A stretch of DNA of 64,000 bases from Amoebophrya sp. A120 (Eukaryota; Protista; Dinoflagellata), in NCBI GenBank assembly GCA_905178155.1, contig CAJINV010000006.1, positions 4,113,709 to 4,177,708 of the forward strand, read 5' to 3'. Below are positions 12,327-49,800 of this stretch, piece by piece; the stretch's first letter is position 1, and each line of letters begins with the position of its first letter. The translations under genes and the position numbers were made by a program. The notes beneath the pieces are model-generated. The model worked only from the letters and a program-made list of their open reading frames with translations, had not been told where the DNA came from and did no database searches.

Positions 12327-15300
12327 TCATGTAACTCTATCAAGTGCAAAAGTGTCTGGGTCTGGAAGATTGCCAGGTTTGTCATGCATATTTTTTTTTT
12401 TTTTTTTATTGGCTCGCAAATTTTTCAGTTTCAGTTCAGTTTCAGTGGAGCGCCCCACCGGTCGAACACTTCTGATGGTGAACGAGGACCTGGGATTTGC
12501 GGCTTCGCGCCGCGACGACTTGATGGGGGTCCCGCACCCACCCTCCGTTTCCAAAAATGCAGCTTGTGCGTGAATGCTGCAAAACCTCCGACACCGCGGC
12601 ACTAAAAAGGAGCAAGCTCCTTATTCACCATACACAAACCCAAAGAAGGAAATCATCGGGAAGAGATTTTGTCGACCACAATCAATGACACCAATGGCAA
12701 CTACAACCCGAAGTAGGGGAGGGGTAGCTACTCCCGCACAACGCGCGAGATTCGTTTTCTACGTGTCGAGCCGGTAGCAGCGGCACACGTCCGATAAAGC
12801 TTTTTCCACGTCGACGAAGAGCTTGCTTTTTTTTTGCTGAATCGGAAAACCCTAAGCCCGTAAACCCATCTAATTACAACGGGAGGAAGCAGCCCCGGTC
12901 TTTTCACGAAGTTCGTAAAACGGTCAAAAATGATTAAGCTAGTGCGCTACGCTACTGACTGTGTGCACGCTTCAGAAAACTTAAGCCCACACAGGTCCGC
13001 ATTTAGCTACCGCCCGCCCTGAATGAGGCACGTCCTAACCCCGGTAGCAGCGAGGCAGATCTTGTTTTTTGAAAATTACACCGGGCGTTTGCAGAGTGGC
13101 GATAGCCGCAGATGCAAGCCTGCGGCTGTTAAGACGGTTGTAAAAAACTAGCGTACTTGTTTTTGCAAAGCTAATAGCACCCCCCAAGCAACAATCCGCT
13201 GGCTAGGCGGAAAAAAAAAGAGAAGCCCCTGCGAGGATGCGGGGTCCGCGGAACGCCTAGCGCTACAAGACGTGGATCAAGCAAGACTAAGTGCGAAGGC
13301 CACAAGACTGTAAAAGGGTAGAGACCTACATATACGTGGGACAACACCGGGCACAGGGAAGATCTAATTTTTCAAAGGCGAAGGAGCGCACGAATTTGCG
13401 ATCTAGCTCCTTGGACAAAACGAACGAAGAGCGGCAAAGACAAAGTGCTGAATAACGACTACAAGGCGGCAGGAAACATACAAAGCATACATAGCAGCAG
13501 CAAGCAAATCGGATTCACATTGCTGTGCACCGGCAGAAACTTCAATCACAACGAAACCCAGCCCCTCAGCCGCGAGGCCTTAAACTTATGCGAGGCCCAG
13601 CATATAAATTCATCATTTTTTTTAAGCTAGGAGCCGGCGTGCGTTACTTACTTACTTTTCATCATTCACTATTTAATTTTTTGCGCGAGCGGGTGCGATC
13701 TCTGAAATGTGAAGAGTGTAGCACAATTCACATACCAGGTTACGCGGGTATACGGCATTTTTTCCCGATTTGTACCTTTTCGGCTCTCGTCCTCTGGTCC
13801 TGCACTTCGTTGTCGATTCCTGTTTAGTTCCCTCACCCACTCTGCTGGCAAGACAGAAAAAAAAAACGTAGCCCCTGTCAGATTAATTAAGCAGGAAGAA
13901 GCCCACACAAAAAATTCCCTCATCTACCTAGGGGCGACTAGGCAGATGGGGTGCGCCGAAGCAGGAAGGGGATGTTTCTAGTTGCAATGAGTTTACTCGG
14001 GAAAAGCATGAGGGTATTTTGGCGGGGTCCGCTAAAAATATCGCAAAAGCGGCAATTGCAATAAAATCAGCTCTACTTCTACTCGACGGCAAGCTAGTAA
14101 GGGGCACAGCATAGACTAGAAAAACTACTGGATCTTTCACGATACGGATCCCGCCCCGCAATGCGTGGGTCCTTTTGCTTGTACGATACGGATCTTCATG
14201 ATCTTTCTCTTTCTTTATAGGTCAGCATTGCAACAGGGGCCACTCTCCCCTGTGCATGCTACCTTTTTATCTATCAGTGCTCCCCAACTTACATCCCGCC
14301 GGGTGAGGCGATTTGTATTGCTAGATTCCACCCAACTTGACTACGGGGTCGTGGGGACGTTTTTGCTTAGGATATGCGCTCTGTCATCTTCACCCCCACC
14401 GCAACAGGAATCCTCGACAATGTCCTGGACGATTTGCTGTTGTTGTTTCTCCACCTGCTGCCGCGCAGCGGCCGCCGATGAAGCAGCAGCTGCAACTTGA
14501 AGGGTCGTTGCAGCTGGTGTGCCCGCTTCTACGTGCTGGTCCGCAACTACGTCTTCTTGAAATGCTGATGCTGCGCCTCCAGGAGAGGCAACATGATCCT
14601 CGTCATGATCTTCCATGATCTTGTTTACAGGAATAACTTCTTCTTGCACGAACTTCTGGGCAACTGGTGTCCTTCCTTTACTGTGAAGAGCAGCATGTTG
14701 ACCCCCGGCACCGCCTCCACCCGTAGTCAAGCTGGTGATGGCAATCTTCCGCCTCTTGGTCGCACTTTGTCCTTCTCGCTTCTCCTTGTTGCGGCTTTTC
14801 TGTGCCGTGAAAGACAGGGCGTTCGCGAAGATTGTGATTTTGCCATGGTCTTCTTGGCCGTTGATATTAATACAACTACTTCCTAGAAATAGAAAGCGAC
14901 AGTAGAAAGAACAGCCTGAAAAAGACAATACCAAGAAGGTCAACATCTTTTCCAACAAATTGAAGTTTTTAATACTCGCTCCCCGCCGCGCGGCCAGGTT
15001 CATGACCAACAAGTCCGGCGGGAAACGAAGAAAGAAGAATTTCTTGTGGACAAACAGCGACATCAATTTGTTCTGATTTTTCGAGGGGTCGTGGTAAGAA
15101 CAACCTTAACCTTTCGGGAACAAGATGGCGCTTGAGCCAAAATGGTTTGTCATGCATATTTTGCACAAGTAATCTGTGATGCTAGGTCATGCATTACAAG
15201 TAATGCATGACCTAGCACCGCAGATTTTTAAAGGGCCTTCTGATGCGTATTCCGAATGAGAAACGCCCGCTCCGCGTAGCACAAACTGAACTCCTGTTGC

Positions 15301-18300
15301 TGGTCATGCAATACAGATTTTTTTTACCTTCCAATCACAAGTTGCAACGTTCCAGACCCAGACATTTGTGCATTTGGTAAACTCGACGGAGAGCTCTCGC
15401 CGCGCCACTTTCCCCCTTTGCACCGGGGTACGCGGCACCGGGGTACGCGGCACCGGGGTACGCGGCACCGGGGTACGCGGCACCGGGGTACGCGGCACCG
15501 GGCGGGCCCCCCTTGTTTCCTTTCGGCCCAGCATGGGGACCTCCTCCTCCTGGGCTAGTACTAGCGCTCTTCCCCCAGGCGGCCGCTGGTGCGCTCGGGG
15601 AGGTCGGACGGCCCGCTTTGTTCCACGAACCGCTTTGTGGCGCAGCCGCAGCCCCCTTGCTGCTCCAATGGCCATACGAGCCGCCGCCCTTTCGCGGGCC
15701 CGCCCACGAGGAGCCTTTTCCCGCCTGCGACCAGGACGACTGCGCCCAGCCTCCGCCGGCATATCGTAAGGAAAAATCCCCCCTCCCCATACTGAACAGG
15801 TACGCTTACGGAGATTTGTGTTGCTGATTTGAGGGCACAAATCGCATTTGTCTTGCAAGAAGGCAACTCCACAGGTTCCGCCGCATTATGCAGGCGGTTT
15901 ATCATGCTGTTGGGCCTACAGCACGGACGTTTTTCATGCTAAGCGACTAGGCCAAAGCCTCTCTACTCTGGCTTGCTATGGGTCTGCAGTCCTCTCCAGC
16001 AAGACAAAGCTGATTTGTGTACGCAAATCCAGCATCAGAAGCATCGTTTTGATATGGGGAGGGGGGATTTTTTCTTTTGATACGGCACGGCCAGACTTCA
16101 CGTACGATCCCCCGAAGAAGGCGAGCACGACCACGACGATCACGAGCACCGCCACCCACCACGCGTTGTCCTCGTCCACGTAGACGGTTCCGTCGTCAGT
16201 GGCTGCTGGTGCAACCACCGCCGGTTCCGTGGTGGTGCTCGTCGTGGACGACGACGTCGATGCCGGGTTCGCGCTCTCGACTTCCCGCGGTGGAGCCACC
16301 CGAGTCGGGAGGGAGGTCACGCTCGCCGCCGCGACCTCGGTATTGCGAAAGGTGTTACTGCTGTCCGCGGCAAACGCGTCGCTTAAAGCCTCCGCCACGC
16401 CGGCGGCAGTTAACTGATTCTCGAAGCGCTCCAAGGCCGCTTCCAACTCTGCCGTCGAGGAAGCCACTCCGTCCTCAAGGTACAGGCCGTACGACGAAAT
16501 GCGCACTGCGTAGGACGACGACGCACTGGCCGCAGAAAGCCCACGATCTGCGTGGAGCAGGTTCCTCGATCGGCTGCGCGTCCGCGACGAATCGGACGCC
16601 GGAAATGTTTGAACCACCTCGGACTGGCTGCCCGTGATCTTGACCAAGTTGGCTTGCTGCATCAGGAACGCCGTTGGAACGCCGGCGTCAGTAAGCCACG
16701 GCACCACGACCTCCGGCTGTTTGTGCAGGGTGCGAACCCCGTTCTCAACGAGCCGGAAAAACGTTGCTGCGGTGGCCTCGTTGGTGCCGACTTCGTCCAT
16801 GAGGGTCGCGAATCTCTCTGGAGACAAAGTAGATGACATATGCATTGCAAAGATCCCTGGATGTCTGGAAACTTGTGACGCAAGGAAGGGAATAGTAAGC
16901 TCACCACAATGCGCTGCCAGGCATGACAAGCTTTTTCATGCAGCTTCTGAGTTGCGCATTCCGCACGAGAAACGGCGTCTTTGCATGACAGGGACGAGGA
17001 GATCTTCGCGGCCATGCAATACAGAGCTCAGAGCCATGCCAGACTAGCACGACAAATCTCGCGATCTCCCAGAAGACCCAGACATCTTTGCAGTTGATAT
17101 GACAGGGCGACATACAAGTTCTGCATCCGTGCGCGCAGATCCTCACTGGCTCCCTCTTCGGCCGTGACGCAGCAATGCTCGGCAGAGTCGCAAGCACTGC
17201 CGTCCGCGGGACACAACTTCCACTGCGCGAACCCCCGGATTTTTATACCGGCTCCCGCACTACTCTCTGCAGCTTCCCGGCAAGCTTCCCGGACAGAGGA
17301 GTCCGCGTCTGCCTCTTCGCACGTCGACTGGCAGCACTCTGCTTTGGTGCACGCTTCGGCATCTGCACACATTTGTGAGCCGAGAAGAGCGGCCTGCGTA
17401 GGGCAACCGTCATGGAACCCGCTACCGCAGCTGCCGATGAGCTGGCAGCAAGTGGCCGCGTCAGCAGCGACTGTGCAACTCGTACCGGCGCAGCGTGCGG
17501 AGGCATCCGGTGTCAAGGCCTTGCCAACTGGACAACTCAGCTGGCCGCTGGCGCCGCCAAATGCCGCAGCGCACAGCTGTTTTGGGGAACAGGCTGGGCT
17601 GTCGCTTTCCGCACCGATCAGAACGAAGTTTGGATGGCACTCACGGCACCCAGAAAGGCCGTCTCCCTTGCAAATCTCGCCGCTTGACGCACCGGTGACA
17701 AGCGGATCTCCATTCGTGCAGGTGCACACATTGGGGTAGCACTTCTTTTGCTGCCCTTCCAGAGAGTGCTCCCCGGTCGCACACTGAACCGCCGGAGGGG
17801 CATACACTTCGATTTCGTCAACATAACGGATCGTGCGGAGCTTAGCCGGATTTGTTTCGAGGACGCCATCAGTATCCTTGGTCTCCTGTTCCTCGGCCTC
17901 CTTTTGCGTAACGCCGGGGAACTCCACGATTACGTAGTTTGCTTCCTTTCCCTGGTTGTGATGCAATGCAAATACCCCTTTTTCAGGTCCCGGTAGGCTG
18001 TCCGAGTTTGTCATGCTCATGCCAAATCTGAATCGTACCGCATCAAAAGGTGCCCACTTCCTACCACTCAACAGGTAAACTTCTCATACGGAGTGGGCGT
18101 TGAGATAAGAAGCTCTTTCAAAATTTCTGATGCTTCTGGGTGCACTGAATAATGCCAACTTTGTACAATATATATCGTAAAGGTAAAGAACCACGAGACG
18201 CGTGACAAGTCTTCCAGTCTTCCAGGCGAACAAGATTATTTGCACTGGATAGCAGTCGACGTCGACATAAAACATTTCCCGGCTGCACAGCCACCATGCG

Positions 18301-19311
18301 GCTCCATATGCCTTGAACGTTGAGGACTGAATATCACAAGGAAAGACCCCCCCTCCCCATCTCAAAAGGAAGTTTCTGATGCTGGGCTTGCGTATATAAA
18401 TCAGGGCTGTCTTGCAGTAGAGGGCTGCAGGCTCCTGCCGAGCCTGAGTAGAGAGGTTCTGGCCTAGGCGCTTAACATGGGAAACGTCTATGCTGTAGGC
18501 CCAACAGCATCACAAACCGCCTGCATAATGCGGCAGAGTCTGCGGCGTTGTCTTCTTGCAAGACAGACGTGATCCGTGGTCTCAAATCAGCAACGCAAAT
18601 TTTCGGAAACATACCTTTTCGATATGGGGAGGGGGGATTTTTCCTCTCAATACTGAACGGGGTGCACCGGATCAAAATACTTTGCCAAGAAGCCGCCTTT
18701 ATCAAATGCAAAAATGTCTGGGTCTGGAAGATTCTAAACTTGTGATGCTGTCTCTGGATTCGAAAAAAATTTGTATATGTATGACCAGTAAGAGGAGTAG
18801 ATTTTGTGCTCCGCGGAGATGGCATTTGTCATGCGGAATAGGCATGAGGAGGCGCTCTAAACATCTGTGATGCTAGGCCATGCATCAAAGGCATTATGGA
18901 TCATGCAAAATATGCATGGCAAATCTTGCAATCTCCCAGACCCAGACATTTTTGCATTTGATAGTCTTCTGTTTGGCCCGTCTCCGACAGGTCGCGAGTG
19001 CCCACGAAGGCCGCTTGCGCTTTGTGCCGTGCTTTCGCGTGATCGTATAGTGGCTTAAAAAGGTCGCCCATTTTGACGCCCCCGGATCCGGAAGCGGCGC
19101 TCTTAATATGCATTGCCAAAATAAGAAACAGCGACCAGCCCTTTATTGAAAGCGCGAAAGCGGCGACGCCCGGAACGTCAGCACTACACGTGTGCTGCGA
19201 AAGCTGCAAAACCAAGCCAAGAAAACAGGCTGGCGACCACTGAAAAGGTTTCGCGTTTTGGCTAGAATTTATTGAACGCTTTGCAGTATACATGTTGCAG
19301 ATCTTCATCAT
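12327..19311 (-). CDS. Type I membrane protein: lectin/discoidin-like and Cys-rich ectodomain, TM helix, G/A/Y/P-rich tail
   Basis: Six introner excisions join the exons in one frame: ...VDCQGKEANYVIVEFPG...EIEVY, Cys-rich repeats, WWVAVLVIVVVVLAFFGG, (GAAYP)5, ...RRVT stop at 12327. Start position uncertain. Confidence 0.72.
14290..14374. mobile_element. Solo right end of a family C introner
   Basis: ...GTGGGGACGTTTTTGCTTAGGATA; no partner end found; left limit approximate. Confidence 0.65.
15131..15145 (-). other. Relic dinoflagellate spliced leader (3' 15 nt)
   Basis: Minus strand reads CCATTTTGGCTCAAG, the exact 3' part of dinoSL DCCGTAGCCATTTTGGCTCAAG. Confidence 0.9.
15421..15502 (-). 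repeat. 15-bp coding minisatellite (GAAYP x5)
   Basis: CACCGGGGTACGCGG repeated 5 times. Confidence 0.95.
15762..16082. mobile_element. TIR introner, family B
   Basis: TSD CGGCA; excision in frame. Confidence 0.92.
16839..17099. mobile_element. TIR introner, family A
   Basis: TSD TGACA; excision in frame. Confidence 0.9.
17960..18251. mobile_element. Degenerate TIR introner
   Basis: 12/15 terminal IR; TSD GTTGT/GCAGT; excision gives in-frame VDCQGKEANY. Confidence 0.6.
18332..18652. mobile_element. TIR introner, family B
   Basis: TSD CTGAA; excision in frame. Confidence 0.92.
18700..18963. mobile_element. TIR introner, family A
   Basis: TSD GCCTT/GTCTT; excision in frame. Confidence 0.9.
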
Positions 19312-19370
19312 GCGCGCCGACTACTTCCGTTGTCCCGTTTTCGCCATCGCAAAAAGCTGGTAGCTGTTTG

Positions 19371-22369
19371 TTATAATTTTGCCCATGAATAATCGACAGG
19401 CATTGACTGAATTGCGATTCCTTCAGGGTCTGCTGCTGTTCCGGGAAGGGTTACAATGCCGCAGACTTTTTCATCGTCCCCGACGTCTGGATCCGGACAG
19501 GTTTCATAGCTTCGCTCCCCGTTTTTTTCCGTTGACATCCTCGCCCGCTGAGTATCAAAAGGGAAAATCCCCCCTCCCCATACATTTTCCGAGGGAAATC
19601 TGTGCTCATGCGCGATTCGTGTACAGGAGTCGGCTTTGCCTTGTAGCGAGAGACAGCAGGCCGCAGGTGGTCCTACGCCTGCATAGAAGTGCCTGGCATA
19701 GGTGCTTCGTTGTTACTTAGCATGGCAGTGGCCTGCCCTGTGCGCACCCGCACAAGAACAGCTGCAGATATATAATGGCGGATCAGCTGCGTAAAAATGC
19801 GGCGGGCTCTCTGGATTTGCTCTCTTGCAGGACACCAGACGCGGTCTGTGAAGATTACAAATCAGCAGCACAGATTTTCAGAGGCACGCATGTCTTTTCG
19901 ATACGGGTAGGGGGATTTCGCCTCATGATACGGAGCGTTTGCGACCTTGACCCGAAGCCCGCCCTTCTCGAACAAAGACGTCAAATGGTCCAGTTTTGGC
20001 CTCAAGTCCTGTTCGTTTGTATACGTAGATGGCGTGCCCCACCCGGGCACCCAATCCCCACCCGTGAACCATATCAAAATGAAAGAACCCCCTCCCCATT
20101 AGATCAAGAGCGAAGACTTCTCTTGCTGGATTTGCGTACACAAATAGGCTCTGTCTTGCAGCAGAGGACTGCAGTCAGATACAGATCCTCGGCCTGTTTA
20201 GGAGAGTAAGTGTCTGACAAGCCATATGCCAAAGGCCAAACGCCTTCCCCGGATGCCATACAGCATGAGAAGTTCCTTTCGTAAAGCGGCGCGGCAGCCC
20301 TCTGCGCTTGCCTTTTTGCACGACAAAGGTCACTTGTCCTCACATATCAGCATGGTCACAGATCTCGCTTTTGAGCATAAATAGGGGAAGGAGGGATCTT
20401 TCCTTGCGATAAGCCAGACCCGCACTTTTCCAACTGACACGGGAGAGGACTGTGGCGAGGGCACCAGCTGCATTTGGTACCAGGGACACGCCTATCAAAT
20501 GCAAAAATGTCTGGGTCTGCAAGATTCTGAGACTTGTCGTTGTCATGCACGGTTTGCATGAGCCATGATGTCTGTGATGCATGCTCTAGCGTCACAGGTT
20601 TTTTGCAGGATTCTTGATGCCTATTCCGCATGAAAAATGCCCTTTCCGCGTAGCAAAATCAAAAATTAGAATCCTTTATGCTTCTCATGCAACACAAATT
20701 TTTTAGACATCCAAATGCAGCATCACAGGTTGCATTCTTCCAGACCCAGACATTTTTGCATTTGATAACGCCGAGGTCGCGTGCTCCAGCCCGTTGAATA
20801 TCGCCAGGAAAAACTGTTTCACTGTAAACTTGTGATGCAGAAATTGGAACACAGAACTACTTATTTGTCTTGCTACACGACCTGCAAGACCTTGGATCAT
20901 TTCCAAGCGTGTTTTATCCCCTTGGGACGTGCGCATGGCAAGTTTTCGTTGTCATGTTTGTAGAGCGAACTTGTGATGCGAAACTCGCAAAATCGTTACA
21001 GTGGAACACTTTATTTTTCCCGTGATATTGAACGTAGTCTGGCTGCTGGTTCCATCGTAACCATCCCCCCACTATGGATTGCAAAAGTGTCTGAGTATGG
21101 AAGAGTGCCAGACTTGTCATGCAGGTTTTCCATGACCCGTGAGGTCTGGTATGAAGGACATAGCATGACAGATTCTGTGGCAGAAGTTCTATCATGCCTA
21201 TCCTGCATGAGAAACTGCCTCTCGATTAGGTCAAAAGTGGACAGCTTTTGGTAAACATGCAACACAGATTTTTACATGATTCAGATTTAGCATGACAAGA
21301 CTGCACTCTTCCAGACCCAGACATTTTTGCATTTGATACCCACCGACCCAGCAGACCATCGTAAAGCTGCGGGTAGTCAGGGCCCGGTTGTATCCTGAGT
21401 AAAAACGTCCCCACCCCAGAGTCAAGATGGGGATTTTGCAACACAAACCTGGAAGTCTTGGGACTCATGCATCACAAGTTGCAGTCCGTAGTGTAGTGCA
21501 GGCTAGCACAGGCAAACGCATCAGAAACCCATCTGCTTATCCTGGTTACAGCATTACAAATGCCAAAACACGACTAGAAATTCAAATTCCTCTCATGGAG
21601 ATGCCCATTACCAATGTTCCTGTCGTTGCAAATCTGCATGACAACTCTGGGGTGGGGACGTTTTTACAAATGATAGGTTGTGCGCTTTGCACAGCGACAG
21701 CGTGCGCGGTCGCTCCGTACACCTGCAGTTTTCCCGCGCCGGGAGTCGTCGTGATAAGTCGCGACGTAGGGCCTACGCGTACAACAACATCCTGACAAGC
21801 GTCGTCATCAGGATCTGCTATCTCACATGTTCGCTCCTATCAAAATGAAAAATCCCCCCGCCCCATCTTGAAAAGGAAATTTCTGTTGCTGCATTTGTGT
21901 ACACAAATCAGCTCTGTCCTGCAGTGACGTACTGCAGGCAAAGCCTCAGCCTTCGTAGGGGTGTTTTGGTGTAGGTGCGTAGCAACGCAGAGGCCTGCCG
22001 TGTAGACGTAGCAGCATTACAAACCGCCTGCATAAAAAAGCAGCATTACAAACCGCCTGCACTCTTTGGATTTGCCCTCTTGCAAGAGAAAGAGGATTTG
22101 TGGTCGCTTTTAGAAGCATTCCGTTCCCTTTTAGTATGGGGAGGGGGGATTTTTCCTCACAGTAGCTCCTCCTGCATGTTCAAGTCGTAGGCTCCGTAGA
22201 AGTCGAAGGCGGCGTTTCGCTCACTCTCTAATATGTCGCTCCCATCCGCTTTTTTGCGGTCCTGTTTTCCGTACCATGGTGGACAGGTTGTGGTTACTGT
22301 CGCCTTCACCGGTAAAACAGCTGTGCCCGTGACGAGACACAGCAACCGCAGGACGCGCCCGGTGATCAT
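19371..22369 (-). CDS. Putative secreted protein with a discoidin/F5-8-like segment
   Basis: Signal-like MITGRVLRLLCLVTGTAVLPVKA. Seven introner excisions give one frame ...PQLYDGLLGRWGDGYDG...ACPWYQMQLVPSPQSSPVSVGKVRVWFTGGDW...YSWAKL, stop at 19371. The ORF may extend upstream to 22609. Confidence 0.72.
19553..19930. mobile_element. TIR introner, family B (diverged)
   Basis: TSD CTGAG/CGGAG; excision in frame. Confidence 0.85.
20072..20411. mobile_element. TIR introner, family B (diverged)
   Basis: TSD AACCA/AGCCA; excision in frame. Confidence 0.85.
20493..20767. mobile_element. TIR introner, family A
   Basis: TSD ACGCC; excision in frame. Confidence 0.92.
20799..21027. mobile_element. 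TIR introner, family D-like
   Basis: TATC..AAAACTGTTTCACTGTAA / TTACAGTGGAACAC..GATA; TSD TTGAA; excision in frame. Confidence 0.85.
21073..21338. mobile_element. TIR introner, family A
   Basis: TSD CCCAC; excision in frame. Confidence 0.92.
21391..21675. mobile_element. TIR introner, family C
   Basis: TATC..GTAAAAACGTCCCCACCCCAGAGT TIR; TSD GGTTG; excision in frame. Confidence 0.92.
21838..22164. mobile_element. TIR introner, family B
   Basis: TSD GCTCC; excision in frame. Confidence 0.9.
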
Positions 22370-22739
22370 GTCCAGCCACATACTCTGCTTACTCGGAAAA
22401 ATTAGCAGGAGCTGACAGAAATTTATAATTTCTTTTTCAATACGAACCACGATCATAAAATTGCGAAACGTCTTCACATAGTAGACCAGCAGTTCAGATC
22501 GGAGGTCGTGTAAGAGGTGATCCAGGTTCATCCGATCTTTGTTTCGTTCATCGCGGAAAAAGTTCACTTTTTGTTTGACATCGAGATGGAGATCGGCTTC
22601 GAAGAACATGAAAAAATAAACAAAAAAAAATGTATACCTCTCGGCCTAGTCCACCGTGGTGAAGATTGTCTCCAGCGAACAAGGAAGAGTCAGCTTGCGC
22701 TTAGCCTCAAGGATCAGGACAGGCGGAATTGGAGCAGAG

Positions 22740-33207: not shown

Positions 33208-33400
33208 AAGTCAAGCAATATAAATATTAATGCCCTCTCCGCGTAGCCAAAATTGCATTGCCTTTGCTGCTCATGCAATACAAATTTTTTTGGAATCCAA
33301 ATTCAGCATCACAAGTTGCATTCTTCATCCAGACCCAGACATTTTTACATTTCATATATGAAAAAGCCAACCAGTGGCTTCATCAGCCCGCCTGTTCCAA

Positions 33401-33653: not shown

Positions 33654-34242
33654 TCCAAATTATGGTTTGAACCGCCCCGAGTTGTGCTCGTATCCTGCCC
33701 GGGATACAATTTGTTTTCGCCGTGTGCTTCTGCTTCTCTTTTATTTAGCATTAGCAATCAAATTCTCTAAGTAATTGTAATCCGTCTCCCATGTAGTTCA
33801 TCATCGAGATGTCGCTTTGAAAAAATAGGGCAGCTACGTACACCCTGTATCTTTAATACTTTTGAAAAAAAACCGGCAAAAAAGTAGTGGTAAACAAAAT
33901 CATGACGTGGGCAAGGATAATTCAAGCGGTGGTCCATTTCAAAATCATCATACACTGCCACTAGAATATCAGCTTGCACCACGCCAATCACGATAAGAGG
34001 CTGAGTACAGGTATAGTCAAAATGTCGTCGGCATAAAAAAAAAAGTGGATTTTATTCTCAAGGGGCGGGGGTTAGTCTTAGTACGGTGGAGAAAGGCAAA
34101 CAATAACTACAAAAACGAATTGGCAAGAACAATGAAACTCCTTGTAAAAAGGAGTAGCGAGCTCGTCCTCTAGTGCTATAAAATAAGTGTACAAATAAAT
34201 CCTGCACGTCGCAGCAGACACAGGAGTACAGCACAAACCGCT

Positions 34243-36664: not shown

Positions 36665-36697
36665 TGATTTCTGGTACTCGACAGTCTCTCCCTTTTG

Positions 36698-39600: not shown

Positions 39601-39847
39601 TTGCTTTTGGTTGCTGTTCTTTCTGCATCACGTCAATTTTTATATCGCAGCTTTCTTTGCGTACTACTTTGTACTTAGTTTATGCATCGATGACAAAAAA
39701 AATATCATAAACGTACATTATTACCGTGCTCGCATCTTTGTTTTTGTAATTTTTCTCCGAGTCGTTGACTTTTCTCAACTTCCCCGCCGCACCCTCCTGG
39801 ATGCCGGAGAGCAGGCCGCTTTGCGGCGCGCTTGGTGACTCTGTCAT
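36698..39847 (-). CDS. CAP: Cyclase-associated protein, WH2 plus C-CAP (CARP) portion
   Basis: Seven introners and two GT-AG introns (39415-39724, 38703-38931) removed give LLSGIQEGAAGKLRKV...NWIVENYEN...KQSAYISNSNGTTFKIDNKIKSITVDNCEKVGLAINDVLSAVEVINCKTIYLHCQGSVNTIQSDKVDGLNVYL...DDWKEMPIPTQF...LKTEVSDIYSA, stop. Confidence 0.93.
36752..37006. mobile_element. TIR introner, family A
   Basis: TSD AAATC; in frame in CAP. Confidence 0.93.
37041..37287. mobile_element. TIR introner, family D
   Basis: TSD GATGG; in frame in CAP. Confidence 0.9.
37346..37608. mobile_element. TIR introner, family A
   Basis: TSD GCGAC; in frame in CAP. Confidence 0.93.
37689..37999. mobile_element. TIR introner, family B
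   Basis: TSD CGGAC; in frame in CAP. Confidence 0.93.
38060..38326. mobile_element. TIR introner, family A
   Basis: TSD GATGA/GATCA; in frame in CAP. Confidence 0.92.
38386..38632. mobile_element. TIR introner, family A
   Basis: TSD GTTGT; in frame in CAP; inverted relative to the 36752 copy. Confidence 0.93.
39084..39370. mobile_element. TIR introner, family A
   Basis: TSD GCGCC/GCCCC; in frame in CAP. Confidence 0.88.
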
Positions 39848-40862
39848 GGTGAAAAGCTACCTACGTTTATTTTGCCCCACAGAGTAGATAATGATATTAA
39901 ATTTAAACTCACGAATGCTTATTTCTCAATAATACTTCTAACTAGAGCGGCTATAATTTTTATGCGAGTTCGTCATGCAAAACGTGTAGTGTTGTGGTAC
40001 TTGTTTGGAAGTGTAGTACACAATGTGCTGTCCACTTCAAACTCTTTGTATTCTTAACCAGGCTTATCTTGCAGTCACAAGAATCTTTATGCTGTACTTA
40101 CTTACTACTCCGATAGAAATGCTCGCATGGCAACAGACAAATTGAAGCGAAAAAAATGTTGCGAACTTTTCATTCGCAAACAGGAGACCACGTTTCATGT
40201 AGTGGAGCAGATCTTGCTTGCGGAAATAAAATTTTCTGATTTTTTTCAGAAAAAACTATGAGAGCCCGAAGATTTTTCTTGGAGGTGAACGCGAATGCTT
40301 TATTTTTCTTGTCGTTCACTAGCTTTTGGTTGTCTGAGTATTTCATACGTACTTGTCTGGAATAGGGAGCTGCATCACTGGAACACGACCGAACTACAAC
40401 TCGACCTGGAATAAGGCACTTATATTTCATTTCATCAGTACAGCAGGACCACAAGTGGACATGGAGCAGGAGGTGATACTACTAGAATTACCATAGCACA
40501 GCTCCAATAGAAGGTGCATTTTTACCTACGAGAACCGATCGTGGAGGCAGCTCTATCATAAGGCAAGACACGAGCGACGTGTTGTTCCAGGCAGGAGCTA
40601 CCTCCCGTGAGCATGGGCTTCACCTCGCCTAGCTAGCTTTTAGGTAGAAGTACTGTTGACGTATGCGCCAGGAGCCTATATGATGTCTAGAGCCTCGCGC
40701 GATGAACGTCGATTCTTTTCAGAACGTAAGTCGTACCCAGGGATGTGGGTTCGTCCCCATCAACTACGCATATAATGCAACAACCCTGCTTGCATAATAT
40801 GATCGCGAAGACCTCCTGCTCCATACGTCGCACTTTACTCGTCCCTTCTGTAGTTGCAAAGT

Positions 40863-43800
40863 TTAGTACATCCTTCCTCGTGGTGCCGCGCATTTATATG
40901 TAATGGTAATCTGAATCTCCCATAGGGCAAAAAGAAGTACATAACTTTTCACAAATTGGATAGCTGTTGGTGGCGCTGGGATCTTTTTCTCCTTCTTTTC
41001 CACCTTCTTGCTCGTCCCGCTACTCCGCTCTTCCGGTGCCGCCATTGCCGGCCCAGCTGATCCTTCTTCCTGCGCCCCCGCGGGCGCTGGTGCTTCTCCT
41101 CCTGACGGGGTAGGAGCAGCGGGTGCAGCGGCTTTCTGGGTCGTCGTGACAGGAGCGGAAGCGATCGCGAGCTCTGGGTCCGGCCGCGAATTCCACTTGA
41201 TTCCCATGCCGAGGTTGGTTTATGGATTGATAAAAGCTGCCATATCGTACTTCGGTTCTCGTATGAAGAAAACTCGGCGCATGATAATCAATTTACAAGA
41301 GTGCTCGTCCGCATGGAAGAAGATGGAGTTCTTGGCATGGTACGGAATAGGTGCAGTTCCATCGTGTTTCATGTTTTTGCTTTAAAAGGAATTGAAAAAG
41401 TAACAACAGAAGATCTTAAAGGCAACTCATTTAGAGTAACGCACTCCATAAAATGGTAGACATTTGACACACATAAAGAGGAGGTTGTTGGTCTCCGGTC
41501 CTCGGTCCTCAGTCCGTCGCGAGGTAATATATGAGGAGATAAGAAGGGAGAAGCGCCAGGCACATAAGAAGGAGGTTGTTGGTCTCCGGTCCTCGGTCCT
41601 CACTCCATCGCGAGGGAGTAGATGAGGAGAGAAGAAGGGAGAGGCACCAGACACATAAGAAGGAGGCTGCTGGTCTCCGGTCCTCGGTCCTCACTCCATT
41701 ACGAGGTAGGACGTGAGGAGATAAGAAGGTAGAAACACCAGACACATAAGAAGGAGTCAGGCAGACAGCCCCGGGCGGTTTCTGTTTCTAATTATTTCCT
41801 AAAAGTTGGCTAATTGGGGAGCTCGATGGGTGTCTTGTTGGCAGCAGGGGGGCCGCGTTTGGCCGCCCCCGGGGCAATGGCGTGGCGCCGGTTTTTGTGT
41901 GTGTTTTGTGGGTACCGGGAACGCCCCGGACGGTGTGGCGCGTCGACAATCGGAGGCCCGCCGCATCCTCTCTGTGGATCCTCACCGGCCCCGAGGTGCA
42001 GGCTTCGCATTTGGGGCCGTTGCCGTTTTGTCATTCCCCTCGGGAGGGCGCCAGGGTTCCCGGATTTCGGTCTGTGTGTGGTGCCCTCTGCCGCGCGGGG
42101 CCCGCGCCCTGACTCCGGGGTCGGGGCGACAGGGGATCGCGCCATTGGTCTGTGTTCTCCATCTTTTCCCGGGGCGGCCGTCCGGTATTCTCCCCCGGGA
42201 AGAATCGGCGGGGCCTCGGGAAAAAGGCCCGCTTTTGCTTGCTAAAACACCTCCCGGAAAATTCTAATTTGAAATTCTAAAACGCCGCTAATCTGTTTCG
42301 GGCCCAATTCTGGACCCGAAAAATGCCCTGGCTAATTGTTACCTAATTTGTTGCTAATTGATTGCTAATTGGCTGGCTAATTTGCATCGGGTGGGAATTT
42401 CGTGTGTGATTTCGCCTATACCTCGGGCATAGGCAAAATCGCACTTGTTTTTTGCGTTGTTCTGCAAATTAGACAGGGCCTGGGGCCTTGGGGTTCTGCA
42501 AATTAGACGCAAGTTAGCCCACCAATTAGAACAGGGGGGCAAAGAAATTAGATTACAAATTAGCAGGGTTTTTTTTGGGGGTCCGCCGGGTCCCGGAGGG
42601 CGTTCCGGGAGTTGTTTTAGCCACCAATTATCCAGCTTTTCTGCCTTTGCCGATTCGCAAATTAGCCGGCTTCGTTGTCTCCTGCTTCGGGTTTCTGTTC
42701 TGTGTTCTCCTCGCCCGGGTTCGGCGCAGGCGATGTCCTCCCCATTCCGTTTTTTTGAGTGCTTGGGGGTGGCCAGGTTAGTTGGGCGATGATGCTCGAG
42801 GTTGGGGCTCATGTTTTTGTGGTGCCGATCCCATGTCCCGGTCGTCGGGACAGCGTGCGCCAATTTCGCCTCTTGGGCGCAGGCAGACCCACGTCCGGAA
42901 GGTGTCCTTGGTTGTGTTTCTTTTGCCGGGCGCGTGTATTGCCATCAACATGTTTCGCCCATCGCTCGGACTTTGGGCGCCTGTCGTTTCAGGTGGGCTC
43001 GCCGAGGATCGACCCTTCGCGTTTTTTAGTACTCAAATTAGCCAAGAACCAGAATCCAATTAGAAGAAAAGGTCGCCCGGGCCTGTCTGCCTGAAAGGAG
43101 GCTGTTGGTCCCCGGTCCTCGGTCCTCAGTTCCTCGCGAGGTAATACGTGCCGAGACAAGGAGGCAGAAGCACCAGACACATGCGCAGGAGGATGCTGCC
43201 CTTCGGTCCTCGGGCCTCAGTTCATCTCGAGGCTAGCAATATAGGGCGGGGCAAGATAGAAGGTAGAGGCACCAGGCACATACCACCTTGCTGGGCGTTT
43301 CGCAGTGCGGGGGGAAATATGAGGGCAGGCATTTGCTTGTCGTTTCGCGGAAGATGATGCTCGTTGCTCTCGAGCATGCGCATCATCTCCCGCAGGCCGC
43401 AGGCAGATATCTACAGCTGCCGGATCTTACATGGTTCCGTGAAGCCGAAGCAGGCGGCGGAGTGGGAATCTTCCGGCTCACCGGAAGAGCCTTCCGGTTC
43501 CGTTTCCGGTTTTGCCGTCCGAAGTGCTTCTCTTTCATCTTCTAAAGCCGCGAAGCTGCGACTTTGTGTGTGATTTCGCCTACCCGGCAGCTTTAGCGGA
43601 TTTTTAGAAGCCTCGAAGCTGCCGCGTGGGCGAAAGAATTAGAAGAATTGCAGAGGCGGAATTAGAAAGCAGAACTAAAGGCATTGCTAAAGGATTTCTT
43701 CGAGGCCTTCTCAGAGGCCATAGCAGAAATGGACCACCAGGAGGCAGCTACTTGTAGCGCAGCACTGCGCAGCCGCCCTCGGGTTGTTGAAGCGACCACC

Positions 43801-46800
43801 TCAGCACCGCCCGCATTTGCAAAAGCTGAGGCGGCCACTTCGACCATTGGGGCGGCACGTGCTCCGCTGCATGTTCTCCGCTGCGCGCGGGCACCAGCGC
43901 GCGCCGCGAGCTTTTTTTCAGTTTGCGGGCGCGCGTCGCGCGCTTGAAGCGCTTTCTTTTGTTGCATCCGTATGCCAATCCACGCGCGCGCCGCGCGCGC
44001 CCAAGCAATATCTGTCGTTCTGCTTCATTCTGTTCCAGCTACACCGCAGAAACCGCGCAGCGACCCAGCTGAGAAATCGCAGCAAGCAAAGCAAATTTTT
44101 TCTCGCCGGGGCGGGGAAGTTGTGGCCTGAGATTTTTGAAGCCCGAAAAGGAAACACTGGTCGGGCCCGGATGGGCCCGGCCATCTGTGGATACCGTCAG
44201 CCGGCCGATGGCTCGCAAATTTGCCGTCTAAAAGGCTGCCGATTTTTTTCTAATATTGTGGGGCCCACATTGTTCCGGCTTGTGGCCCTCCTTTTTTCTT
44301 TTCGTCGTGGCCCCACGAGTGTGGGGCCCCAAGGGTTCTAGAGGTAGTCCGGGCAAGGGTTTTTTCGTCGGTAGTTTTTGCAGGTTTTGGAAATTGGGGC
44401 GCTGGGGATTTTTTTTAATTTTTTTGGCGAAGATTGCCCGCCCCAGTGTCTGCAGGGCCCGTGGCGCATCGGGGCCCGGGGTTTCCAAGGTTTGCGCCCC
44501 TGCGATTTTAGTTTTTGCCCCAGAGGGAAACGGCGCGACTGTTTTCCATTTGTCTCGGGCCGCATATCAATGGCCCCGGCCCGCCCGGCCGAGGTTTATG
44601 AGGGGCGCAGAGGTGGGGTTGGGGGGGGCTAATTTGGGGTCTAATTTCGCGTCTAATTTGTTTCTAATTCAAGCATAGGGAATGCGAAAGGGTTTGCAAT
44701 GAAAAAAATTAGCCGTGATTTAGCCAGGAATTTAGGCGCGAAGTTAGTCGCCTGCCTTAGCATCGATTTAGGCAAGGAATTAGTCGGGGCAAGAGGTGCC
44801 CCGCCCGGTCTGTTTCCGGCTAGGTGGTTGCTGTTGATCATTTCGCCGGGCGGTTTCCCGGTTTTTTGTGTGGGCGAATTGCCGCCCCCCCCTAATCTTG
44901 CACATCGCGCCTGGCCTCCCCTCGGGGTCGCCTCCCTTCTGGGCCATTTTCTCTCTGGATGGGAGGAGCCCGAGGGCGCTAGGTATTTGGCCGCGAAGTT
45001 CTTGGCCCCGTTCGTTTTTGGTGTCCCGCCCCCCATGATTTTTGCCCGGTGGTCTTCGGGTTGGGTGTTGTCTTTGGCGGCATTGCCGCCACTTTCTTTT
45101 TTTGTTTTCCTTCGCGACATTAGAAAAAATATAGCAAGTTTTAAGCCTCGGAGAATGAATGCCCGGGGCCGGCTGCCTGAGATACGGCCCGCCAGACGAC
45201 CGACCGCGCCTACGTATCGAGAAGGAGGCCAATTAATCGCGCGGCCTCTAAAACAAAAAAATAAAAATGAAAACAAAGTAGGGCACAAAAGTAGGCCAAA
45301 AAAGTAGGGCGAAAAAGTAAGACAAAAAACAACAGCAAAAAATAAGAACAAAAAATGAGAACAAAAAGTAAGACACAAACGCAAGCCCAAAACGCAAGAG
45401 CGTGAAAGCGCCCCCGAATTAGAGCGCGGCAAAGGTCTCGCACACAAGGGCGACGCCCCGACGGCTTTCGCCCAATTCCGGAAATGCCATGGGTGGGCGG
45501 CCGCAACACAACAGAGGACAGCGAAGAGGAAAAGGGGGCGCAGCCAGAAGCGAAAGCCTGCGCCGGAAATGGCCAAGGCCGACCGTAAATTTTTTAGGCT
45601 TTGAGTGGGGCCGTCTCCGCAAGGCGCGGCCCAGCAAAAAAAAAAAGCACATGGGCCGGCGCGATTCTGATTAGTGCGATCAGCTTCATGCCCGTAATGG
45701 ATCAAGATGGTCCCGCCACTTTGAAATGGGCCAAGTCCCGACCCGCGTGCCCTTCCTGATCTTTCAAACCAGGTCGCGGCCGACAAGCAACTGAAAGGCG
45801 AGCCGCGGAAAAAAAAAACGAAGGCCGCGCGGGTCGTTTTCATTTGATTGGGGCGGATACCTGCTGGGCGGTGCAGAAATGTATGCTGAAGGCTGACAAA
45901 CCGGCTGGATTTTGTTCATTTCGCCCGTAACTAATCGGACAGCCCGAAGCCAACCGGTCGGGGGTGGAAGCCGAAGGGGCCGGCGCAGATACCGCCTCGG
46001 ACCCTTCTCCCAGCGACAACGACGGACAGCAGCCCCCGGAGCCCCGGCCCGTCGCCTCGAAGTTCCGGCGATGACGAAGGCGGCGCAGGCGGCTAGTGAT
46101 TTCGGTGGGCGGCCACCAATCTGCCAGGTGGCGCGTTTCGTGTTGAAATGCAGGGGGGCGCAAAGAACAACAGCGCGCGCGCGTGGTTCACAGCCTGGCA
46201 GATCGCAAGCGAGGCCGGGCGCGCGCTGTGCATCGCTATCTTTGTTCCCGCGTAGTGCACCGCTTCGCCTTCAGAGCCAGGCGAAGGAATCAACGAAAGC
46301 CGTAAGACCCTGGCGCCGTATGTGGGCGCGCGCGGGCTCACGTCCGTCGTGTCGCTCGGTTGCCGGTTGTGTGATCAAAAGCAACGGGGGCCGGGGCGCC
46401 GTGGCGCTTCAGTTCGCCGCCTGTTCATTTAGTATGTACGGGCGCGCCCGCCAGGGAGGCGAGGTAAAATGGCGGCGCTCGGTCGCCTCCTGTTGCGCCC
46501 GGGCTCCCTCCGCGACGTCATTCATTTTCATGTGCGTCACGGCCGCGGCCGCTGGAACAAACAAAGTCCGGGGGCGGGGCCTGTGCGGGGGGAGCGGCGG
46601 CCGGCCCGATTGCTTTCGTTCGGCCTCCCTGCTGCCTAGCGCGACACGTATTGTTTGCGCCAACTCAGATATTACCAACCTCGGGAGGAACGGAGGGCCG
46701 AGGACCAGAGACCCACACGCCCCCGCCGATGTCCGTAGGCCTTCGACCTTTTTCTGTATGTAAGTGGTGCGCCGCCCCATGAGGGACGGAGGACCGAGAG

Positions 46801-49800
46801 CCGGAGACGAACAGGCTCCGTCGTAAATGCCTGGCCTTTGTACCATGCTAGCAATCACGCTCGCCGGGTCTGATCGCTCTACAGACTCACTCAGGGCCGA
46901 GGACCGGAAAGCAGCAGGCCCCTGCGTGGGGGCTTTCTGCCTTCTTATCTGTCTCGCCAGGCGCCGCCCCGCGATGAACTGCAGACCGAGTGCCGGAGAC
47001 CAACAGCCCGCGCGCATTTGTGTGAGCTTTCTGCCCTCTTTCTTATCTCGCCAGCTGCTGCCCCGCGATGGACTGAGGGGGGGCCGTGGACCAATTGGCC
47101 CCCTTTTTTTTGTGTGGGGGCTTTCTACCTTCTTTCCCCGTCGGATCTTGCCCGGTGATGGACCGAGGGCCGGAGACCAACAAACTCCCTTTGATGTGTG
47201 TTGGCCTTCTACCTTCTTGCCTCGCCATCTATTGCCTTGCGATGGACTGGGGACCGAGGACCGGAGACCAGCCGGCCCCCTGTGATGTGTGTGGGTTTTC
47301 TGCCTTCTTATCTCGCCAACTACTACCCTGCGAAGGACTGAGGACCGAGGACCGGAGACCAACGAACTCCCTCTGATGTGTGTGGGCTTTCTCCCTTCTT
47401 CTCTCGTCGTCTTTCTATTGCCTTGGGATGGACTGAGGCCCGAGGACCGGAGACCAACAAGCCCCTTCCTATGTGTGAGCTTTCTCCCTTCTTCTCTCGC
47501 TGTCTTCTATTACATCGGGATGGACTGAGGACCGAGGACCGGAGACCAACAAACCCCCTTTCTTGATGTGTGTGCGCTTTCTTCTTTCTTCTCTCGTTGT
47601 CTTCTATTACCTTGGGAGGGACTGATGACCGAGGACCGGAGACCAACAAACCCCCACTGATGTGTGTGAGCTTTCCCCCTTCTTCTGTTGCCTTGGGATG
47701 GACTGAGGACCGAGGACCGGAGACCAACAAACCCCCCTTGATCGATGTGTGTGGGCTTTCTCCCTTCTTCTCTCGTTGTCTTCTATTGCCTTGGGATGGA
47801 CTGAGGACGGAGGACCGGAGACCAACAGACCCCCTCTGATGTGTGTGAGGTGTCTCCTTTTGTGGAAGTTGAGTAGTTGAGTGGTGTCTGTTGTTGCTGC
47901 AGTTCTTGCTCAAGTAGAGAAAAAACACAAATCACGATGGTGCTGCACCTATTCCGTACCATGCCGAGTTCTTGTTCTTTCCCCTGCTGGTTCACACTTT
48001 GGAATTTGTTTTGATGTCATTCCCAAAAGCAAATTTGATGTAAGTATTAATGCGGTGTCAGTAGGTCGTGCAATGAGTACAACGAGTACGATACTTTTGC
48101 TTTTCTTCTTTTGCTTTTCTTTTCTGTATCTTCTTTTTCTTCTAGAAGACGCAGCTTCTAGAAGAAGCTGCTTCTTCTCCCTAGAAGAAGTCACAGTCAC
48201 CTCGCTTGGACACGCGGATCGAACTGTCAAGCGCAAGGCACCAAAGTTCGCAAGTACAGCCGAACTGGCACGGCAGCCTTATTTCTGGCCCCCCCAAAGT
48301 GTTGCGTGCCTATCACAGGAATCCTGTGATGGGCACACAATGTCAGAAAACCAGAAACAAAATCGCTACGCCGGTTCGGCTAAACTTGCGAACCGCCGCG
48401 CTCTGCGCGTGAAAGTTTGGGCCGCGACTCCAAGTGAGGCAATTGGAGGCACAACACACAAATCCAAGGAGCGCATTGCTGTAAGTCTACAGCGTAAGAT
48501 TATGCTGCGCAGTTCCTCTGACCTGCTAACTCGTGGATGTGCGCTCACATGTGAGGAGTTCTCGGACGTGAGCTCGCATCTGAGGAGTTCTCGGATTTGA
48601 GTTCGATAGCAACAAATTTTAGGAGCACACTTCTGCAGGCCAGAGCACGAGAGTGCTATCCGAGTTTGTATTCTGACCTTGAAACACAGAAAAACCCGCA
48701 CAAGATCATCTTAGGCGGGGGCTTTGCAGAACTATGATCCCAGGTCTCGATGCGGCGAAAATCCTAGGGGCGCACTTCTTTATCTCCCCGACGTCGGATG
48801 ATTTTGCGCGAGGTCTTCAGACCTGTCGCGGCCAGAGCACAAATCCGACGTGGGGGCCTTGCCGAAATGTGCTTCCAGGATTTCCAGCAAACCTTGGAAA
48901 CGCATTTCCGAAAGGCCAGAGCGTGGCAGCTGCTGGGCGACCCCTTATATTGAAGGCGCGTTGCTTTCGGGGACCTGGCGCTGAACACGAATTGCTTACA
49001 ATATACTAGCACAGCAAACAAAATACTTTCTATGCCAAGGCATTGCAAGGAATTCGTTTCCAATAGCAGGGCACTTCGAAGCAACTCGCTTTCAACGAGC
49101 AGGAGGGCAAGGCCCACTCCTGGCAGCCCGGCAGGACAAGCGCGGCAGCCCCGCCGAAGACGGCTGCCCATTCTCCCCCAAGCTCGCGCGCTGGCTGCTT
49201 CCCAGCCACAGTCTTCATGGCCTTCGGCCATTCCAAGCGACTGCGAGAGTGTGCAAGCTAAACCCCCCTCGCGGTTTGTTTCCATTTTTTTCAAACCTAG
49301 GCTTTCGGGAACAAGGGTAGGAACTAATTTCTGTAAGCCTTAAAGCAGGTCGTGCAATGAGTACAACGAGTACGATACTTTTGCAGTGCATACAGTTTTC
49401 ACAAACGCGATCATGTGCTTCACGTAATCGGTCAAGGCCCGCGTCTATCAAATGCCAATATCGTCGATCTGGGTCATCTGGACAAAAGCACACGGGTTCG
49501 GTTGTCAGTGTCATGCTGAGCATTGCATGACAGGCACAGGGTTCGGCTGTCATGCTGAGCATTGCATGACAGAGCGATCATGCTGTGTAGTACCCGGCAT
49601 TACCGCATGACAAATCTTCTCTCGCTCTTGTTGCGAGTTGTTCCAGTTCTCCTAGTATCCTAGTCAGCATGACAAACTCTCTTGTTCCGGCACTAAAGAA
49701 ATAAAAATCATCTTCACTCCGATGTATTTTCATGCATCACAGATACAGATCTTGTTGTCCTTTTCTCTTTCGATCTTTGTTCAGATCTTCTCGCAGTACA

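What the first reader, a model, noticed from the sequence alone, without database searches (positions are those of the whole stretch)
12338..49392. Introners as Russian-doll safe havens: multi-kb cargo sits inside them
Seen: three elements keep both ends and their TSD but are swollen. 12338-15379 holds a 2.75-kb retrocopy, 27680-33356 holds a 5.4-kb satellite block, and 41221-49392 holds a 6.6-kb transposon with a nested element plus a 1.25-kb insert. Excision of the first and third restores host frames (RRV-T-stop; FVKT-x-LGMGIKWN). The host frame for the second is unresolved. Inference: end-directed removal tolerates large length increases, so introners shelter other parasitic DNA in a gene-dense genome.
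Basis: partly seen in the sequence, partly recalled or inferred. Interest (0 to 1): 0.8.

Follow-up and report, generated by a model that had tools for sequence, protein, structure and literature searches.

The report
Giant nested introners still spliced out
In the parasitic dinoflagellate Amoebophrya, three short transposon-derived introns have grown to 3-8 kb by taking in other mobile DNA and two are precisely missing from transcript assemblies (the third likely so), which suggests its unexplained non-standard splicing reads only the intron ends, while a special 'safe haven' preference of mobile DNA for these introns is not shown.

Summary
The anatomy is real. The window is Amoebophrya A120: two exon queries hit A120 proteins at 100% identity. 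Three ~260-bp introners have grown to 3,042, 5,677 and 8,172 bp (91-97% foreign DNA). E1 holds a spliced-leader, poly(A)-tailed retrocopy. E2 holds a 5.4-kb element with a 3.9-kb 132-bp array. E3 holds a 6.6-kb TIR element with two nested elements, plus a 1.24-kb insert. Transcript contigs join the exons across E3 (41216 to 49394, 8,177 nt, no microhomology) and E2 (27679 to 33362); E1's removal is inferred. E3 lies in the CAP gene, and the spliced 477-aa protein equals the public A120 protein, so that intron is already in a gene model. E2 lies in a 3' UTR (inferred), so it needs no host frame. 'Safe haven' as a preference is not shown: introners are 61% of non-coding target DNA here (P=0.14 for 4 of 4), and other insertions lie outside them. 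The value is as a natural experiment on Amoebophrya's unexplained non-canonical splicing: length, interior and a perfect direct repeat are dispensable. New variant of a known kind; interest 0.42.

The parts
12338..15379 (-). E1: swollen introner (274-bp shell), removed from the minus-strand host transcript (inferred); 5-nt direct repeats at 12333-12337 and 15380-15384
   Evidence: X3 and X6 contigs stop at 12332 with 70 and 42 nt left over; public protein P0002 reads across the joint
12395..15143 (-). 2,749-bp retrocopy: 13-nt spliced-leader relic at 15131-15143, poly(A) tail at about 12391-12408, 19-nt target duplication (12376-12394 / 15144-15162); multi-copy, no Pfam domain; orphan introner end at 14310-14374
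   Evidence: (leader sequence); X1 summed depth 134-268 against 44-61 in unique bins, transcript depth 0-1.3
12327..22381 (-). Host gene of E1: Cys-rich, likely single-pass membrane protein of about 1,000 aa; E1 sits one codon before the stop (RRV|T-stop)
27680..33356 (-). E2: swollen introner (267-bp shell) in a 3' UTR (inferred); direct repeats TATGA at 27675-27679 and 33357-33361; 5,682 nt absent from transcript contigs
   Evidence: loose ends of X3 and X6 behind 27679 read the 30 nt from 33362 on
27819..33228 (.). 5,410-bp non-coding insert: 43-nt terminal hairpin (27819-27861), 132-bp array of 29 copies (28332-32191), fold-back segment 32575-33200; at most a 2-bp duplication; resembles rolling-circle non-autonomous elements, class not established
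   Evidence: (z -4.8); X6 contig crosses the shell/insert border at depth 6
27201..36664 (-). Host transcript of E2: 407-aa ORF (36664 to 34243) and a 3' UTR of about 1.1 kb
   Evidence: the 1,963-nt X3 contig is accounted for exactly, ending at the CAG repeat at 36301 (inferred)
41217..49393 (-). E3 intron (8,177 nt; GT at the 5' end, CC at the 3' end); introner ends 41221 and 49392; flanks TGGTT (41216-41220) and CAGTT (49393-49397)
   Evidence: joint 41216 to 49394 in X3 (depth 279.7) and X4 (268.9) with zero shared letters, X6 loose end agrees, no such joint in X1
41334..47965 (.). 6.6-kb TIR element (GGCATGG ends, exact 8-bp duplication GAGTTCTT, subterminal 91-bp arrays), multi-copy, no transposase domain found
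   Evidence: X1 depth 107-472 in most bins
41758..43093 (.). Nested TIR element 1 (CAGGCAGACAG ends, 8-bp duplication 6 of 8) in the left 91-bp array
44197..45179 (.). Nested TIR element 2 (related ends); another copy of the large element lacks these 987 nt
   Evidence: X1 joint 44195 to 45183
48101..49344 (-). 1,244-bp multi-copy insert with a T-rich tail and a 38-nt exact duplication (48063-48100 / 49347-49384), likely a retro-insertion; shares a 14-nt word near its 5' end with the E1 retrocopy
   Evidence: loose ends at 49343-49344 in X3, X4, X6
36698..51552 (-). Host gene of E3: cyclase-associated protein (CAP), 477 aa; the E3 joint falls after residue 164, inside CAP_N
   Evidence: CAP_C E 3e-42; CAP_N E 8e-6, 26.4 bits against a cut-off of 27
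39837..40963 (-). E4: a fourth long (1,126-nt) non-canonical intron with decayed introner-like ends in the same CAP gene
   Evidence: joint 39836 to 40963 in X3 and X4

Best explanation
These are ordinary Amoebophrya A120 introners into which unrelated non-coding mobile elements likely inserted later; E2 and E3 are precisely missing from transcript contigs, E1 likely so, probably because the non-canonical splicing reads only the two termini. The inserts came by likely target-primed retro-insertion (E1, the 1.24-kb insert), TIR transposition (the 6.6-kb element and its two nested elements) and an unclassified route (E2). The cut lies one base outside the 5' TAT and four bases beyond the 3' ATA: unique at E3, compatible at the other introner-type joints. 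Passengers most likely persist because intron interiors are neutral and make up most of the non-coding target, as in any intron. Recognition probably combines an end motif (TAT-N7-AAAA and its complement) with pairing of the two ends. In E3, folding of the inner element's own inverted ends may shorten the loop (inferred).
For: Shown: target duplications around three of the four inserts, and shells matching normal copies; joints 41216 to 49394 and 27679 to 33362. The contigs are mRNA-derived: they skip GT-AG introns too, and an X4 loose end behind 51686 matches the spliced leader. Spliced CAP is an intact 477-aa protein identical to P0001. All 8 introner-type joints of the 11 on the CAP contig fit the -1/+4 rule, E3 uniquely; the other 3 are GT-AG introns. 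The internal motif TGTVWTGC (13 per kb in small introners) has 0 copies in the E3 shell. E3's true ends score above every interior position with an end profile. The true ends pair better than all interior windows in E1 (0 of 587 as good), E2 (0 of 1114) and E4 (0 of 203). A higher-scoring orphan 5' end inside E1 (14374) shows no sign of use: transcript depth is 0 at 14362-14938. No enrichment over target size.
Against: E1's joint was not printed. It rests on where two contigs stop, on length arithmetic, and on a public model whose C-terminus uses another frame (YMMGHW-stop). E2's two sides were never in one read lay. E3's ends pair weakly (-18.5 kcal/mol; small introners median -39.5; random pairs median -12.5, 5th percentile -22.2), and 44 of 1613 interior windows pair as well or better, so pairing alone does not explain E3. 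In E4 the motif profile fails (3 and 9 interior sites score higher). Contigs give no splicing efficiency. X1 gave no cover at 46052-46487 and little at 48232-49103 at 98% likeness. The enrichment test has only 4 events.
Confidence: 0.8

Rival explanations
1. True safe haven or targeting: mobile elements end up in introners more often than target size predicts. Either end-directed removal is more robust than canonical splicing to passengers, or T-runs in introner ends attract retro-insertions.
For: All 4 independent inserts of the finding are in introners; against all insert-free DNA (38% introner) P=0.02. Both retro-type inserts sit within 60 nt of an introner end, at T-runs.
Against: Against non-coding DNA, the fair null, P=0.14; counting two outside insertions gives 0.57. 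The coding mask in that count is approximate, and the elements were picked for being inside introners. Duplication-flanked inserts also occur in exon-like DNA (6452-7580) and in a GT-AG intron (39410-39609).
Confidence: 0.2
2. The joints are reverse-transcriptase template switches across a stem closed by inverted ends and flanked by direct repeats, so the elements are not spliced in the cell.
For: Inverted plus direct repeats are the known setting for this artefact (own knowledge); E1 and E2 have perfect 5-nt repeats and strong end stems.
Against: The E3 joint has zero shared letters and a weak stem. The joined form is the main contig (depth 270-280, with next to no cover inside) and restores a full CAP frame.
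Confidence: 0.04
3. The transcripts come from an allele or strain without the elements (or from DNA-level excision), or the interiors are misassembled.
For: No run gave long reads; contigs drop rare variants; part of E3's interior has no X1 cover at 98% likeness; DNA and transcript runs belong to different studies.
Against: X1 crosses both E3 borders at single-copy depth and shows no empty-site joint; the long listed exon pieces show no other letters. A low-depth X6 contig crosses the E2 shell/insert border. The A120 assembly used Nanopore reads (PMC7789003 abstract).
Confidence: 0.07
4. The swollen elements are compound transposons in which introner ends carry cargo to new sites.
For: A120 introner families with TIR ends and internal LTR-element homology in several near-identical copies are reported (PMC12130899 section 6).
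Against: Three of the four inserts have their own target duplication inside the shell, other copies of the 1.24-kb insert end next to different sequences, and E3's ends and direct repeat are decayed. No second copy of a shell-plus-cargo unit was seen, but the genome could not be searched.
Confidence: 0.08

Closest known systems
Amoebophrya A120 introner elements (Farhat et al. 2021, PMC7789003; abstract, passages, sections 4 part 3 and 5, supplement passages seen)
   Same: Non-canonical introns with inverted ends starting TAT, seven looser bases and an A-run; 3-5-nt direct repeats; co-oriented genes; U1 snRNA not detected.
   Different: The median A120 intron is 247 bp (longest 35,152 bp). The parts read do not describe nested elements in introners ('nested' 0 hits). 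Here a decayed repeat fixes the cut at -1/+4 and shows that length and interior are dispensable.
Secondary TE insertion into pre-existing introns (PMC9860276, passages seen; general in plants and animals, own knowledge)
   Same: Mobile DNA accumulates in intron interiors and leaves with the intron.
   Different: The host intron is itself a TIR element with a non-AG end; introner pipelines filter such cases out (family medians 30-654 nt).
Euglenid nonconventional introns (review PMC11282704, passages seen)
   Same: TIR-paired, non-GT-AG introns up to several thousand nt with an unknown removal mechanism; a precedent for long end-defined introns.
   Different: Independent lineage and other end motifs; nesting was not in the passages seen.
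Dinoflagellate retrocopies with DinoSL relics (PMC5585692, passages seen)
   Same: The E1 insert begins with the last 13 nt of DinoSL and has a poly(A) tail and a target duplication.
   Different: It is multi-copy in DNA, not covered in the transcript runs laid, and has no Pfam domain, so it looks more like a non-autonomous retroelement than a live retrogene (inferred).
A120 introner family 38 and similar families (PMC12130899, section 6 seen)
   Same: Long TIR-flanked introns with interior sequence from another TE class.
   Different: Those occur as several near-identical copies with LTR-element ORFs; the cargo here has no Pfam domain and mostly has its own target duplication.

Membership tests
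Amoebophrya A120 introner element | Inverted ends starting TAT, about 7 loose bases, A-run | tested here: met
   end-profile scores E1 20.6/15.2, E2 23.5/21.8, E3 11.6/17.5 (ordinary ends median 17.6, 5th percentile 3.9)
Amoebophrya A120 introner element | 3-5-nt direct repeat at the exon borders | tested here: met
   E1 5 of 5, E2 5 of 5, E3 only 3 of 5
Amoebophrya A120 introner element | Member of a repeated family | tested here: met
   E1 212/274 and E2 231/267 identical to window copies; E3 weak (132/250, terminal 27-40 nt at 82-93%)
Amoebophrya A120 introner element | Removed from mRNA with non-canonical borders | tested here: met
   E3 joint printed, E2 by loose ends, E1 inferred
Amoebophrya A120 introner element | No internal transposase | tested here: met
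   0 of 44 frames inside E1-E3 hit Pfam at E 0.05. These were 44 selected frames, not all: 13 of 27 listed for E1, 28 of 68 for E3, 3 for E2.
Retrocopy / non-LTR retro-insertion (E1 insert) | Poly(A) tail, target duplication, spliced-leader relic | tested here: met
Retrocopy / non-LTR retro-insertion (E1 insert) | Identifiable parent gene or reverse transcriptase partner | not testable with these tools
   no genome held; no Pfam hit
hAT / Merlin / MULE (6.6-kb element) | 8-9-bp target duplication and TIRs (criteria recalled, not from a call) | tested here: met
   exact 8-bp duplication (9-bp reading also possible), about 30-bp TIR
hAT / Merlin / MULE (6.6-kb element) | Superfamily-specific transposase | tested here: not met
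   no Pfam hit; not filed under a superfamily
Helentron-derived non-autonomous element (E2 insert) | 3' stem-loop, central tandem repeats, insertion in TT without duplication (PMC4067079, passages) | tested here: inconclusive
   terminal hairpin z -4.8, 132-bp array, insertion in a T-run of the minus strand with at most 2 bp duplicated
Helentron-derived non-autonomous element (E2 insert) | 12-15-bp subterminal inverted repeats | tested here: not met
   no inverted 9-mer shared near both termini; not filed as a Helentron

The most novel reading that the evidence does not exclude
Amoebophrya removes introners with a U1-independent, end-reading machine that is blind to length and content. This makes its roughly 30,000 introners preferred, nearly cost-free landing sites for all other mobile DNA. 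Some shell-plus-cargo units could move as compound elements, which would also explain the reported TIR-flanked introners with LTR-element interiors.
Probability: 0.18. Interest if true: 0.72.

Novelty: new variant of a known kind. Interest (0 to 1): 0.42.

Why it matters
How Amoebophrya removes non-canonical introns without a detected U1 snRNA is open (PMC7789003). Swollen, decayed introners act as natural mutants. E3 shows that 97% foreign interior, an 8-kb span, loss of the internal motif and a broken direct repeat are tolerated in a conserved actin-regulator gene, and it fixes the cut position. That narrows the signal to the termini and argues against a reverse-transcription artefact. Introner surveys that demand end-to-end similarity miss such compound introns. 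The safe-haven idea can be tested directly on the public assembly.

Tried and rejected
No whole genome is held, so there is no genome-wide count. Run X9 (raw RNA, same species label) laid only 47 reads, all partial, and was uninformative. The run search listed no holder on record as RNA; the transcript nature of X3, X4 and X6 is inferred from skipped GT-AG introns and a leader end. The joints table was filled by X1 and hid 807 rows, so E1's joint was not printed. Pfam on 44 insert frames: none. Rfam on the whole window at gathering score: 0 matches. The 5' ends of the two retro-type inserts did not fold notably (z -1.9 and +0.8), so a ribozyme reading of their shared 14-mer has no support. A PDB search with one CAP exon gave only designed armadillo proteins, taken as spurious. 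A coding frame across E2 was rejected: only a 64-aa AT-rich ATG frame crosses the joint, in the 3' UTR. Helentron and hAT/Merlin/MULE labels were not adopted. Earlier findings: none returned. Literature searches listed no paper on nested elements in Amoebophrya introners. Roy et al. 2023 (Curr Biol) was seen only as a reference, and the supplementary figures of PMC7789003 (S12 intron lengths, S19-S25) could not be seen and may bear on long introners.
Full report
Setting. All genes read in the window lie on the minus strand and are studded with short elements with TAT...ATA inverted ends and 5-nt direct repeats. I listed 60, of which 57 are 145-398 bp; a few more turned up later. Removing each with one repeat copy yields long frames, e.g. 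1,793 aa. Two exon queries each found one protein at 100% identity, named Amoebophrya sp. A120. The end motif matches the one described for A120 introners, and that paper reports no U1 snRNA and leaves the splicing mechanism open (PMC7789003).

E1 (12338-15379). Perfect AACTC repeats. The shell rebuilds to 274 bp, 212 positions identical to a normal copy. The 2,749-bp insert has a 19-nt exact duplication, a poly(A) tail and, at its 5' end, the last 13 nt of the dinoflagellate spliced leader (leader sequence from PMC5585692), so 'retrocopy' is right. It is multi-copy in run X1 (summed depth 134-268 against 44-61), nearly absent from the transcript runs, and has no Pfam domain. X3 and X6 contigs lie on the downstream exon and stop at 12332 with 70 and 42 nt left over. 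Stopping before the repeat is how the tool placed joints, and 70 nt from 15380 ends exactly where a 31-mer unitig would stop in the 15-bp array at 15420 (inferred). The public protein P0002 also reads across this joint, in another frame after skipping the array. The joint itself was not printed.

E2 (27680-33356). Perfect TATGA repeats; 267-bp shell, 231 positions identical to a normal copy. The 5,410-bp insert has a terminal hairpin (z -4.8), a 3,860-bp array of 132-bp units, a fold-back segment, and at most a 2-bp duplication. It resembles Helentron-type carriers of tandem arrays but lacks subterminal inverted repeats, so I leave it unclassified. In X3 (depth 402.8) and X6 (47.3) the contig on 27201-27679 continues with the 30 nt that start at 33362: precise removal of 5,682 nt. 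The 1,963-nt X3 contig is accounted for exactly by splicing all introners up to the CAG repeat at 36301.

E3 (41221-49392). The flanks match at 3 of 5 positions and the shell is old (132/250). Inside are a 6.6-kb element with an exact 8-bp duplication and 91-bp subterminal arrays, two nested TIR elements (another copy lacks the second; X1 joint 44195 to 45183), and a 1,244-bp insert with a 38-nt duplication. X3 and X4 (one sample) join 41216 to 49394 at depth 279.7 and 268.9 with no shared letters, and a loose end in X6 (second sample, same study) agrees. X1 shows no such joint and crosses both borders at depth 45 and 42. The spliced frame is a 477-aa cyclase-associated protein identical to public protein P0001, with CAP_C and CAP_N matches. 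The intron is therefore already implied by the public gene model; its nested content was not found described in four searches.

Mechanism. Shown: the E3 cut is one base outside the 5' TAT and four bases beyond the 3' ATA, and all 8 introner-type joints among the 11 on the CAP contig allow that rule. E3's two repeat mismatches fall at one position of each copy that is intronic under this rule, so a perfect repeat is not needed, and template switching at a repeat cannot explain this joint. The internal motif common in small introners (201 copies in 15,312 bp) is absent from the E3 shell. Predicted end pairing is -38.6, -45.6 and -18.5 kcal/mol for E1-E3, against a median of -39.5 for 57 small introners and a 5th percentile of -22.2 for 500 random pairs. 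In E3 the true ends win by motif but not by pairing (44 of 1613 interior windows as good). In E4, a 1,126-nt decayed intron of the same gene, they win by pairing but not by motif. In E1 a stronger orphan 5' end shows no sign of use. Inferred: both motif and pairing contribute. E3 also has a GT donor, and its inner element's termini pair strongly (-62.3), which could shorten the loop. Whether the spliceosome does the cut is untested.

Safe haven. With the four inserts removed, introners make up 18.0 kb, other non-coding DNA 11.4 kb and coding DNA about 18.6 kb (approximate mask). Four of four inside introners has P=0.14 against non-coding DNA and P=0.02 against all DNA, where exon insertions would be purged anyway; adding two outside events gives 0.57. 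Outside events exist: a dynein heavy-chain fragment between 44-nt repeats, a rearranged region at 8100-10750, and an introner fragment between 38-nt repeats in a GT-AG intron; whether their host DNA is functional was not tested. Secondary insertion into introns is described as common (PMC9860276), the longest annotated A120 intron is 35,152 bp, and euglenid end-paired introns reach several thousand nt (PMC11282704).

Limits. Evidence is from contigs, so there is no efficiency, strand or rare-form information. The transcript runs are labelled RNA by guess and come from one study. There were no long reads and no whole genome. E2's ends were never laid together. Papers seen: PMC7789003 (abstract, passages, two sections, supplement passages), PMC12130899 (passages, section 6), PMC11282704, PMC5585692, PMC4067079, PMC12005148, PMC9860276 (passages). 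Target-duplication criteria for transposon superfamilies, target-primed insertion and the template-switch artefact are from my own knowledge.

Verdict. Observation confirmed; removal shown for two elements and inferred for the third; a preference of mobile DNA for introners is not shown. New variant of a known kind. Interest 0.42, mainly as a natural test of an unexplained splicing system.

Noticed in passing
window 39837-40963 (E4) and 40031: A fourth long non-canonical intron in CAP. In run X6 a contig (depth 22, against 4.4 for the upstream exons) starts at 40031 inside it. The decayed 3' end supplies an in-frame ATG at 39847 that would give a 232-aa C-terminal CAP form. Possibly a stage-specific internal start, or intron retention.
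   Followed up: partly
window 15111-15124 and 49302-49315: The two retro-type inserts, otherwise unlike, share an exact 14-nt word within about 45 nt of their 5' ends (rough chance 5e-6); possibly a shared signal of one retroelement family. No Rfam match.
   Followed up: partly
window 6452-7580: A fragment of an outer-arm dynein heavy-chain gene (E 9e-12) with two introners in it lies between exact 44-nt direct repeats inside another gene-like frame.
   Followed up: partly
window 7961-10750 and 5494-5582: Rearranged region: a 41-55-nt word recurs six times around captured introner fragments, including a 324-bp unit in 3.1 tandem copies; 89 nt of exon-like DNA recur at 9122.
   Followed up: no
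window 39410-39609: A 126-nt introner fragment between 38-nt direct repeats inside a GT-AG intron of CAP. Long (19-55-nt) duplications around inserts recur in this window.
   Followed up: partly
small introners, whole window: The motif TGTVWTGC (either strand) occurs at 13 per kb in small introners of several families, against 0.8 per kb in coding DNA, and 26 times in the E2 array; role unknown.
   Followed up: partly
window 15420-15502: Public protein P0002 skips the 15-bp coding repeat (PGAAY units) and changes frame before E1. Contig arithmetic suggests the repeat is in the mRNA, so the model's C-terminus may be wrong.
   Followed up: partly
window 28332-32191: The 132-bp unit is self-complementary (first unit z -3.8) and alternates as a 264-bp dimer; it stays open in several frames for about 1,000 codons, probably by chance of the unit.
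   Followed up: no
window 560-2100 and 9200-9900: GC-rich stretches with no Pfam match in six long frames and, for the first, no repeat elsewhere in the window; possible further inserts outside introners.
   Followed up: no
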